From NCBI RefSeq assembly GCF_003334385.1, contig NZ_QOWN01000144.1: a stretch of 806 nucleotides of DNA; one strand, given 5' to 3'. The stretch is from Escherichia coli (GTDB lineage: Bacteria; Pseudomonadota; Gammaproteobacteria; Enterobacterales; Enterobacteriaceae). A program made the translations under genes and the position numbers. The notes beneath the pieces were generated by a model. The model made no database searches. It was not told the DNA's origin and saw only the letters and a program-made list of their open reading frames with translations. Shown piece by piece: positions 1 to 806 of the stretch. Numbering within the stretch: position 1 is the first letter of the stretch; every line of letters begins with the position of its first letter.

Positions 1-806
1 CATCCGATTCGGCATAAAAGGCTGCCTGGTCCTTAAGGCGTTCGCTCAGATACTGCGCGTTCTGTGCCCGTGCCTGTCTGTAAAAATCCTCACTGATATC
101 CCCGGTCTGATACTGAGACTGAAGGTCCGCATCCTTCTGGCGGAAGCTGTCGCGGATCTGCTGCAACTCCCGCATGCGTTCCCTGGCTCGTTCTCCCTGC
201 CCGTACCCCAGCAGTTCGGCTTCATTTGATGCACGCGCAGCCACATTATCATTCTTCAGGGTCTCTTCCCGGGATCGCAACTGTTCCCGGATTTTTTGCT
301 GGTCAATCAGGGCCGCGTTACGCAGCAGTTCCTGCTTCTGCATCTCCGTCAGGGTTTTCAGTTCGCCCTGCGCAGTCTGGTACTTCAGCTTCGCCAGCTC
401 TGTATTCTGACCCGCCAGTGCCAGTTGCTCTTTCTGCTGCTTCAGTAGCCGGGAAAAACTGTCTTCCGCTTTTTCCGTCTCTGATTTTCCACCCCGGGAT
501 TTAGGTTTGTTCGCCTCGTTATTACGCCAGGCTTCCAGAGCATTACTGATATAACGCTGTCTCGCCTCCTGATACGAATCCCCCACAAAACCAAGGTCAT
601 CCGCCGCATACCCCAGCCGGGCACGCTCTTTTTCCTCCCCCTTCAGTCGGGACAGGGCCAGCTCACGCTCTGTTTTTGTCAGGGCACTCTGCTGTTTATC
701 ATCCAGGGTGGCCTGTGGCAGCCGTAACGGTACATTCACCAGTCCCTGACGCTGCTGAAGCAGTTCATTCCCCAGCCCCAGCAGACGGTTGAATTCCGTA
801 TGCTGA
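1..806 (-). CDS. Partial CDS, internal fragment with both ends outside the window; probable phage tail length tape measure protein (lambda gpH-like), central helical/coiled-coil region
   Basis: Seen in sequence: the minus-strand frame with complete codons at 805..2 runs 268 sense codons with no stop, checked codon by codon. The same register on the plus strand contains TGA, TAG and TAA. Codon choice is enterobacterial-like: Gln almost always CAG (CAA twice), Leu mostly CTG. Composition is Q/E/L/R/A/K-rich with spaced hydrophobic residues, typical of long alpha-helical coiled coils. Inference: the product call rests on composition and on loose resemblance, recalled rather than searched, between the stretch ...NKPKSRGGKSETEKAEDSFSRLLKQQKEQLALAG... 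and the ...KKPKQSS...RQEDSAHAALLTLQAELRTLEKHAG... region of lambda gpH. No enzymatic motif is visible. Confidence that this is a real CDS is about 0.9; confidence in the tape-measure product is about 0.5. Confidence 0.7.

What the first reader, a model, noticed from the sequence alone, without database searches (positions are those of the whole stretch)
1..806. Window-spanning minus-strand reading frame that the ORF track does not show
The only plausible coding frame here is a stop-free minus-strand frame covering every codon from 805 down to 2. It is missing from the six-frame track because it has no in-window stop, and relying on the track alone would mis-annotate the window as four small ORFs. 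A 268-codon stop-free run with consistent CAG/CTG/GAA/AAA codon choice is very unlikely to arise by chance.
Basis: seen in the sequence. Interest (0 to 1): 0.3.

Follow-up and report, generated by a model that had tools for sequence, protein, structure and literature searches.

The report
Fragment of prophage tail tape-measure gene

Summary
The minus-strand frame from 805 to 2 has 268 codons and no stop, and every other frame has 4-16 stops. It is an internal segment of a lambdoid (HK97/Stx-phage type) tail tape measure protein (TMP) gene. The DNA is 99.8% identical to a prophage TMP gene in E. coli SCU-104. There the encoded 268 aa are 100% identical to residues 598-865 of an annotated 1088-aa TMP. 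It is 99.4% identical to phage Lys8385Vzw (residues 590-857 of 1080). In both records the window's frame is the annotated frame, and it runs on for hundreds of codons on each side to a start and a stop. Related phages vary mostly at third codon positions (5/8/48 variable columns at positions 1/2/3) and never interrupt the frame. The segment matches PHROG, Pfam (PF06120) and NCBIfam (TIGR01541) TMP profiles. It is 52% identical to HK97 gp16 and is predicted to be almost entirely alpha-helical. The gene lies in the canonical tail module (major tail, chaperones G/T, TMP, M, L, K, I, J). The small ORFs on the six-frame track are by-products of a CAG/CTG-rich gene. Nothing here is novel; interest is low.

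The parts
2..805 (-). Internal coding segment (268 complete codons) of a lambdoid/HK97-type phage tail tape measure protein gene. It corresponds to residues 598-865 of the 1088-aa TMP WP_174147749.1 of E. coli SCU-104 and to residues 590-857 of the 1080-aa TMP of phage Lys8385Vzw. Bases 806 and 1 belong to the flanking, cut codons.
   Evidence: Stop-free translation. 99.4% nt identity to the phage TMP CDS and 99.8% to the E. coli prophage TMP CDS, in frame. phrog_19302 E=7.6e-181 and phrog_339 'tail length tape measure protein' E=1.8e-62. Variable columns by codon position 5/8/48.
515..805 (-). Residues 1-97 of the window protein: the C-terminal end of the Pfam Phage_HK97_TLTM (PF06120) region of the TMP.
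   Evidence: Pfam PF06120 i-E=6.4e-20, model positions 195-292 of 295. In the full-length orthologue PF06120 covers residues 411-694 with E=1.1e-74.
2..400 (-). Residues 136-268 of the window protein: the N-terminal part of the lambda-type TMP C-terminal domain (TIGR01541 tape_meas_lam_C). This part aligns with lambda gpH from about residue 477 and with HK97 gp16.
   Evidence: TIGR01541 E=3.2e-11, model positions 2-142 of 332. The full-length orthologue scores 235.3 bits against a cut-off of 104.75 over residues 733-1051. BLASTP of the full TMP against lambda gpH gives E=5e-21 starting at TMP residue 733.
107..481 (-). Residues 109-233: predicted single long alpha-helix of about 125 residues, the rod-like part of the ruler.
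   Evidence: AlphaFold2 single-sequence model. DSSP helices are 2-23, 36-39, 44-70, 76-98, 109-233 and 239-266. pLDDT is 74-94 over most of residues 121-260; mean pLDDT is 69.7.

Best explanation
The window is an internal fragment of the tail tape measure protein (TMP) gene of a lambdoid, HK97/Stx-phage-type siphovirus prophage of Escherichia coli, transcribed on the minus strand. Shown here: the frame, its identity with annotated TMP genes, purifying selection on that frame, family-profile membership, helical prediction and tail-module synteny. Inferred from established knowledge of lambda gpH and HK97 gp16: the protein is an extended, largely alpha-helical multimer that sits in the lumen of the tail tube. 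The tail assembly chaperones (G/GT) hold it while the major tail protein polymerises around it, and polymerisation stops when the end of the TMP is reached. Tail length is therefore proportional to TMP length, about 0.15 nm per residue (114 aa for 17 nm, as used in PMC1796659, citing Katsura & Hendrix 1984). On that ratio the 268 residues in the window would account for about 40 nm of tail. On infection the TMP is expelled from the tube and helps form the channel through which DNA crosses the cell envelope.
For: The frame is stop-free over 268 codons. The DNA is 99.4% identical over 806/806 bases to the annotated 'tail tape measure protein' CDS of phage Lys8385Vzw and to four other phage records. 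In all, 91 phage records cover at least 80% of the window. It is 99.8% identical to a prophage in E. coli SCU-104, annotated 'phage tail tape measure protein'. 1280 of 5426 complete E. coli genomes carry a match. The window frame is in phase with both annotated CDSs, at codon 590 of 1080 and codon 598 of 1088. The window protein is 100% identical to SCU-104 residues 598-865 and differs from Lys8385Vzw by one residue, G106R. Among five homologues at 94.5-99.8% identity, variable columns by codon position are 5/8/48, synonymous codon changes outnumber non-synonymous ones (e.g. 35 vs 9), and none has an in-frame stop. A 75%-identical phage, vB_EcoS-689R5, keeps 68% aa identity over all 268 residues inside its 1075-aa 'tape-measure protein H'. 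Profile matches: phrog_19302 7.6e-181, phrog_339 and phrog_1716 'tail length tape measure protein' about 1e-62, PF06120 6.4e-20, TIGR01541 3.2e-11. The full-length orthologue passes the curated cut-offs of TIGR01541 (235 vs 104.75) and TIGR02675 (80.6 vs 21.35), and matches PF20155, PF06120 and PF09718. The window protein is 52% identical to HK97 gp16 TMP residues 615-850 of 1089, E=1e-69. The C-terminal part matches lambda gpH in the solved tail structure 8iyk_H, E=1.3e-17, and by BLASTP, 5e-21. Synteny is major tail subunit, chaperone, T, TMP, M, L, K, I, J in Lys8385Vzw, SCU-104 and 689R5, as in lambda and HK97. The protein is predicted to be almost entirely helical, with one helix of about 125 residues.
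Against: The window cannot be extended, so whether this particular copy of the gene is intact outside the 806 bases is unknown. No record in the searched collections is 100% identical at the DNA level; the best is 99.8%. The window fragment alone scores below the TIGR01541 curated cut-off (43 vs 104.75 bits), because it holds only 142 of 332 model positions. The fragment alone shows no significant BLASTP similarity to lambda gpH; the lambda relationship is seen only through profiles and the full-length protein. The structure model is single-sequence with moderate confidence (mean pLDDT 69.7, pTM 0.31). The ruler and ejection mechanism is taken from lambda, HK97 and TM4 work and was not tested for this protein. 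The number of TMP copies per tail is itself debated: classically three, but six are reported for Ur-lambda (PMC12617516).
Confidence: 0.97

Rival explanations
1. The open frame is a chance feature of non-coding or otherwise-coding DNA, and is not a translated gene.
For: A full-length stop-free frame arises in about 0.1% of mononucleotide shuffles of this window, so an open frame alone is not proof of a gene in a scan of many windows.
Against: The translated frame is near-identical to annotated TMP genes, in phase. It matches several independent profile libraries, with E-values down to 1e-181. Substitutions concentrate at third positions, 5/8/48. It is 52-68% identical in amino acids to diverged phages whose DNA is only about 66-75% identical.
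Confidence: 0.005
2. One or more of the small ORFs on the track, for example 174-410(+) at 78 aa or 226-504(+) at 92 aa, is a real gene, either instead of the minus-strand frame or overlapping it antisense.
For: These ORFs stay free of internal stops in the five close homologues. ORF 174-410(+) shares its wobble position with the TMP frame. Its variable columns are therefore also mostly third-position (2/2/19), and its synonymous/non-synonymous counts are nearly the same as the TMP's over that span. The substitution pattern alone cannot exclude it.
Against: The frames holding these ORFs have 4-11 stops across the window. The stops of 174-410, 226-504 and 296-448 are not conserved in three of five close homologues, and the TTG start of 226-504 is lost in two. 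For the other small ORFs variation falls on their codon positions 1 or 2. In the 75%-identical phage 689R5 the antisense frames carry 7-11 stops. The translations are low-complexity S/A/C/R/L-rich strings, as expected from the antisense of CAG/CTG/GCN-rich coding DNA. No annotated feature other than the TMP lies under the match in any record listed.
Confidence: 0.02
3. The window is TMP-derived, but this copy lies in a defective or cryptic prophage, or the gene is disrupted outside the window. In that case the segment is a decaying remnant, not a working gene.
For: The closest E. coli record (SCU-104) has a frameshifted portal pseudogene and an ompC-like gene inserted in the same tail/head module. 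E. coli genomes carry up to 8 copies of this segment, and many lambdoid prophages in such strains are defective (own knowledge).
Against: Within the window there is no stop or frameshift, and the protein is 100% identical to an intact 1088-aa TMP. The few differences from relatives are nearly all synonymous, which does not suggest relaxed selection.
Confidence: 0.15

Closest known systems
Tail tape measure protein of Stx-converting and related lambdoid E. coli (pro)phages (e.g. Escherichia phage Lys8385Vzw QIW91686.1, Stx2-converting phage 1717, E. coli SCU-104 WP_174147749.1)
   Same: 94.5-99.8% nucleotide identity over the whole window. The reading frame is the same. The amino acids are 100% identical to WP_174147749.1 residues 598-865. 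The tail-module synteny is the same.
   Different: Only a few, mostly synonymous, substitutions. There is one G/R difference at window residue 106 against Lys8385Vzw. No record is 100% identical at the DNA level.
HK97 gp16 tail length tape measure protein (NP_037710.1, 1089 aa)
   Same: 52% aa identity (69% positives) between window residues 29-268 and gp16 residues 615-850, E=1e-69. Overall length class is the same (1088 vs 1089 aa). The Pfam family PF06120, named after HK97, matches. The gene position is the same, between the G/GT-type chaperones and M-L-K-I-J.
   Different: Substantially diverged in sequence. The first 28 window residues do not align to gp16 in the BLASTP comparison. HK97's host-factor dependencies (own knowledge; Cumby et al. 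2015, cited in PMC12617516) were not tested here.
Bacteriophage lambda gpH (NP_040595.1, 853 aa; solved in tail structures 8iyk/8iyl/8k35)
   Same: It has the same role and the same position in the tail gene cluster. The C-terminal third is homologous: full TMP residues 733-1080 align with gpH 477-850 at 26% identity, E=5e-21. TIGR01541 'tape_meas_lam_C' passes its cut-off. PDB 8iyk_H matches at E=1.3e-17. The last ~130 residues of the window fall in this shared region.
   Different: The window fragment alone gives no significant BLASTP hit to gpH. The N-terminal and central parts belong to other families (PF20155, PF06120). The protein is about 230 residues longer than gpH, which implies a longer tail if the ruler rule holds (inference).

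Membership tests
Phage tail tape measure protein, lambda/HK97 type | Match to the curated lambda-type TMP C-terminal domain model (NCBIfam TIGR01541) above its cut-off | tested here: met
   The full-length orthologue, 100% identical to the window protein over the window, scores 235.3 bits against a cut-off of 104.75, residues 733-1051. The window fragment alone scores 43 bits (E=3.2e-11), because only model positions 2-142 of 332 lie inside the window.
Phage tail tape measure protein, lambda/HK97 type | Match to Pfam Phage_HK97_TLTM (PF06120) and to PHROG families annotated as tail length tape measure protein | tested here: met
   PF06120 i-E=6.4e-20 on window residues 1-97 and 1.1e-74 on the full protein. 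phrog_339 1.8e-62, phrog_1716 6.5e-62, phrog_2854 and phrog_24 also match.
Phage tail tape measure protein, lambda/HK97 type | N-terminal TMP domain (TIGR02675 / PF20155) in the same polypeptide | tested here: met
   In the full-length orthologue TIGR02675 scores 80.6 bits against a cut-off of 21.35, and PF20155 E=1.1e-56 at residues 83-272. This domain lies outside the window, so it is shown only for near-identical records.
Phage tail tape measure protein, lambda/HK97 type | Gene position: downstream of the major tail protein and the two tail assembly chaperone genes (G/T), upstream of M-L-K-I-J tail tip genes | tested here: met
   This order is seen in Lys8385Vzw, E. coli SCU-104 and vB_EcoS-689R5. 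It matches lambda and HK97. It cannot be read from the 806-base window itself.
Phage tail tape measure protein, lambda/HK97 type | Very long, predominantly alpha-helical protein | tested here: met
   The orthologues are 1080-1088 aa. In the window segment 63% of residues are A/E/L/Q/R/K/M and 6.7% are P+G. The AlphaFold2 model is nearly all helix, including a helix of about 125 residues, but it is single-sequence with mean pLDDT 69.7.
Phage tail tape measure protein, lambda/HK97 type | Protein length sets tail length (in-frame deletions or duplications change tail length proportionally); the protein is present in the tail lumen and ejected at infection | not testable with these tools
   Established for lambda gpH (Katsura & Hendrix 1984; Katsura 1987) and for TM4 (PMC1796659: a 114-aa deletion gave tails about 20 nm shorter).

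The most novel reading that the evidence does not exclude
The most novel reading not excluded concerns the plus-strand ORF 174-410, which shares its wobble position with the TMP frame and so escapes the codon-position test. It could be a real antisense overlapping gene inside the tape measure gene. A related possibility is that the steep fall in identity across this segment marks a functional or recombination module boundary within the ruler.
Probability: 0.03. Interest if true: 0.35.

Novelty: already known. Interest (0 to 1): 0.05.

Why it matters
It matters only for annotation. A fixed-size window that falls wholly inside a long gene shows no ORF on a stop-to-stop track, and the antisense of a CAG/CTG-rich gene produces decoy ORFs. 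Recognising the segment as a tape measure gene flags the surrounding DNA as the tail module of a lambdoid prophage. Such prophages are common in E. coli, including Shiga-toxin-converting phages, and often occur in several copies per genome. No new biology is implied.

Tried and rejected
Rfam at E<=1 on both strands gave no match. Tandem Repeats Finder at minimum score 30 gave none. The repeat search gave only one 16-nt two-copy direct repeat and one 13-nt inverted pair 301 nt apart, both at chance level. So there is no RNA element or internal DNA repeat unit in the window. BLASTP of the fragment against lambda gpH found nothing significant; the lambda link needed the full-length orthologue and profiles. 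The codon-position variability test failed as a discriminator for ORF 174-410(+), because that frame shares third positions with the TMP frame. That ORF was set aside on the non-conserved stop, the 11 stops in its frame across the window, and its low-complexity product. No enzymatic motif, such as the peptidoglycan hydrolase motifs known in some TMPs (PMC1796659), was found by Pfam in the window segment; the other Pfam hits had E>=0.0096 and look like coiled-coil noise. The large protein-database and metagenome scans were deliberately not run, because the identification was already unambiguous.

Full report
Observation. The 806-base window translated on the minus strand from base 805 down to base 2 gives 268 codons without a stop. 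The other five frames contain 4, 5, 10, 11 and 16 stops. The ORF lister omits this frame because it runs off both ends. The codon bias is as described: CAG 29, CTG 27, GAA 16, GAG 13, AAA 10. GC by codon position is 0.68/0.37/0.62. A full-length open frame in any of the six frames appeared in 20 of 20,000 mononucleotide shuffles. The run is therefore unlikely by chance, about 0.001, but that number alone would not be decisive in a genome-wide scan.

Identity. The translated product hits PHROG families annotated as tail length tape measure protein: phrog_339 at 1.8e-62 and phrog_1716 at 6.5e-62. It also hits the unannotated phrog_19302 at 7.6e-181. Pfam Phage_HK97_TLTM (PF06120) matches residues 1-97 at 6.4e-20. 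NCBIfam TIGR01541 (tape_meas_lam_C) matches residues 136-268 at 3.2e-11. At the DNA level the whole window is 99.4% identical to the annotated tail tape measure CDS of Escherichia phage Lys8385Vzw and to four further phage records. It is 94-99% identical to dozens of Stx1a/Stx2-converting phages, and 91 phage records cover at least 80% of the window. Among complete E. coli genomes, 1280 of 5426 carry a match, with up to 8 places per genome, nearly all chromosomal and all listed ones annotated 'phage tail tape measure protein'. The best is strain SCU-104 at 99.8%.

Extending the frame by proxy. The window cannot be extended, so I used the near-identical records. In Lys8385Vzw the TMP CDS is locus L001 4235-7477 (1080 aa), and the window's first full codon is codon 590, in phase. 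In SCU-104 the CDS is L002 6211-9477 (1088 aa), and the window begins at codon 598, in phase. The 268 residues are 100% identical to that protein, and there is one G/R difference against Lys8385Vzw. The frame thus continues about 590 codons upstream to an ATG and about 223 codons downstream to a stop.

Selection on the frame. I compared five homologues at 94.5-99.8% identity with the window, ungapped. Variable columns fall 5/8/48 on codon positions 1/2/3 of the minus-strand frame. Synonymous codon changes outnumber non-synonymous ones (35 vs 9, 25 vs 10, 16 vs 6), and no homologue has an in-frame stop. A phage whose DNA is only about 75% identical over two thirds of the window (vB_EcoS-689R5) retains 68% amino-acid identity across all 268 residues within its 1075-aa 'tape-measure protein H'. 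HK97 gp16, the name-giving member of PF06120, is 52% identical over window residues 29-268, aligned to gp16 residues 615-850 of 1089, E=1e-69.

Family membership. The full-length SCU-104 protein passes the curated cut-offs of TIGR01541 (235.3 vs 104.75 bits, residues 733-1051) and TIGR02675, the TMP N-terminal domain (80.6 vs 21.35). It has Pfam PF20155 (83-272), PF06120 (411-694) and PF09718 (870-941). Against solved structures it matches several tape measure proteins, including lambda gpH in the tail structure 8iyk (E=1.3e-17, query 751-1088 against chain 496-850). BLASTP of the full protein against lambda gpH gives E=5e-21 over the C-terminal third, starting at TMP residue 733, which is window residue about 136-144 depending on the record. 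The window fragment alone is not significantly similar to gpH by BLASTP. The central ruler region has diverged beyond pairwise detection, and the protein is closer to HK97 gp16 than to lambda gpH. The gene order is major tail subunit, assembly chaperone, T, TMP, M, L, K, I, J in all three near or distant relatives examined, and it matches lambda and HK97.

Anatomy of the segment. The 268 residues are rich in L, Q, E, A, R and K (63% A/E/L/Q/R/K/M) and poor in P and G (6.7%). A single-sequence AlphaFold2 model is almost entirely helical: helices 2-23, 36-39, 44-70, 76-98, 109-233 and 239-266. pLDDT is 74-94 over most of residues 121-260 and lower in the first 100. Overall confidence is moderate, with mean pLDDT 69.7 and pTM 0.31. 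This fits the rod-like ruler part of a TMP. No enzymatic domain was detected in the segment. There is no Rfam match, no tandem repeat and no meaningful dispersed or inverted repeat.

Mechanism (inferred from the family, not tested). In lambda the TMP gpH 'dictates tail tube length'; it is cleaved near its C terminus after tail assembly (PMC12617516, introduction). The proportionality between tape-measure gene length and tail length is described as well established in PMC1796659. That paper cites Katsura & Hendrix 1984 and Katsura 1987, and shows that a 114-aa deletion in the TM4 TMP shortened tails by about 20 nm against 17 nm predicted. Applying that ratio of about 0.15 nm per residue, the 268 residues encoded here would contribute roughly 40 nm, and a 1088-aa TMP roughly 160 nm. 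This is arithmetic on an inferred rule. The number of TMP copies per tail is unsettled: classically three, but six are reported for Ur-lambda (PMC12617516).

The decoy ORFs. CAG and CTG are reverse complements of each other, and GCN/NGC-rich codons likewise avoid stops in antisense. A gene this rich in Gln, Leu and Ala therefore leaves long open stretches on the other strand, and the small ORFs on the track are that by-product. Their frames hold 4-11 stops across the window. The stops of three of them are not conserved in three of five close homologues, and one start codon is lost in two. For most of them variation falls on their own codon positions 1 or 2. In the 75%-identical phage the antisense frames carry 7-11 stops. 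One caveat remains. ORF 174-410(+) shares its third codon position with the TMP frame, so third-position variability (2/2/19) and synonymous/non-synonymous counts are nearly the same for both frames and cannot discriminate between them. I set it aside on the other grounds, and I give a small residual probability to an antisense gene.

Verdict. The gene is a known, widely annotated lambdoid prophage tail tape measure gene. Nothing in the window departs from that family. Novelty: already known. Interest: low.

Noticed in passing
L002:10018-11181 (E. coli SCU-104 prophage, the closest relative of the window): A gene annotated 'porin OmpC' (1164 nt) sits inside the tail gene cluster between the M-like tail protein gene and minor tail protein L. 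In Lys8385Vzw, lambda and HK97 these two genes are adjacent. It looks like a moron-type insertion of an outer-membrane porin gene in the tail module.
   Followed up: no
L002:473-3219: The portal gene of the same SCU-104 prophage is annotated as a frameshifted pseudogene. In Lys8385Vzw the portal is annotated as two consecutive CDSs (L001 1-518 and 515-1252). Either a programmed or sequencing frameshift is shared, or these prophages are defective in head assembly although the TMP is intact.
   Followed up: no
window 2-805 (-) vs L006:1234-4461: Amino-acid identity to the TMP of phage vB_EcoS-689R5 falls steadily along the window protein, from 39/40 in the first 40 residues to 12/28 in the last 28. 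DNA-level matches to other phages cover only sub-segments; HK106/mEpX1, for example, match only query bases 313-613. The TMP gene appears mosaic, or evolves at very uneven rates along its length.
   Followed up: partly
window 1-806; E. coli genome collection: The segment occurs in 1280 of 5426 complete E. coli genomes, with up to 8 places per genome (median 1). That is long, near-identical sequence shared by co-resident lambdoid prophages, a potential substrate for inter-prophage recombination and a source of assembly ambiguity.
   Followed up: no
window 174-410 (+): A 78-aa ATG-initiated antisense ORF has third codon positions that coincide with those of the tape measure frame. Its substitution pattern mimics purifying selection (2/2/19), which is a trap for codon-position tests. 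Its stop codon is not conserved in three of five close homologues.
   Followed up: yes
L001:3978-4187 and L008:1204-1392: Just upstream of the tape measure gene, Lys8385Vzw has a small 210-nt CDS annotated 'putative minor tail protein', where SCU-104 is annotated with tail assembly protein T. HK97 has the gp15 moron at the corresponding place. I did not check whether the Lys8385Vzw CDS is a mis-called T/frameshift product or a moron.
   Followed up: no
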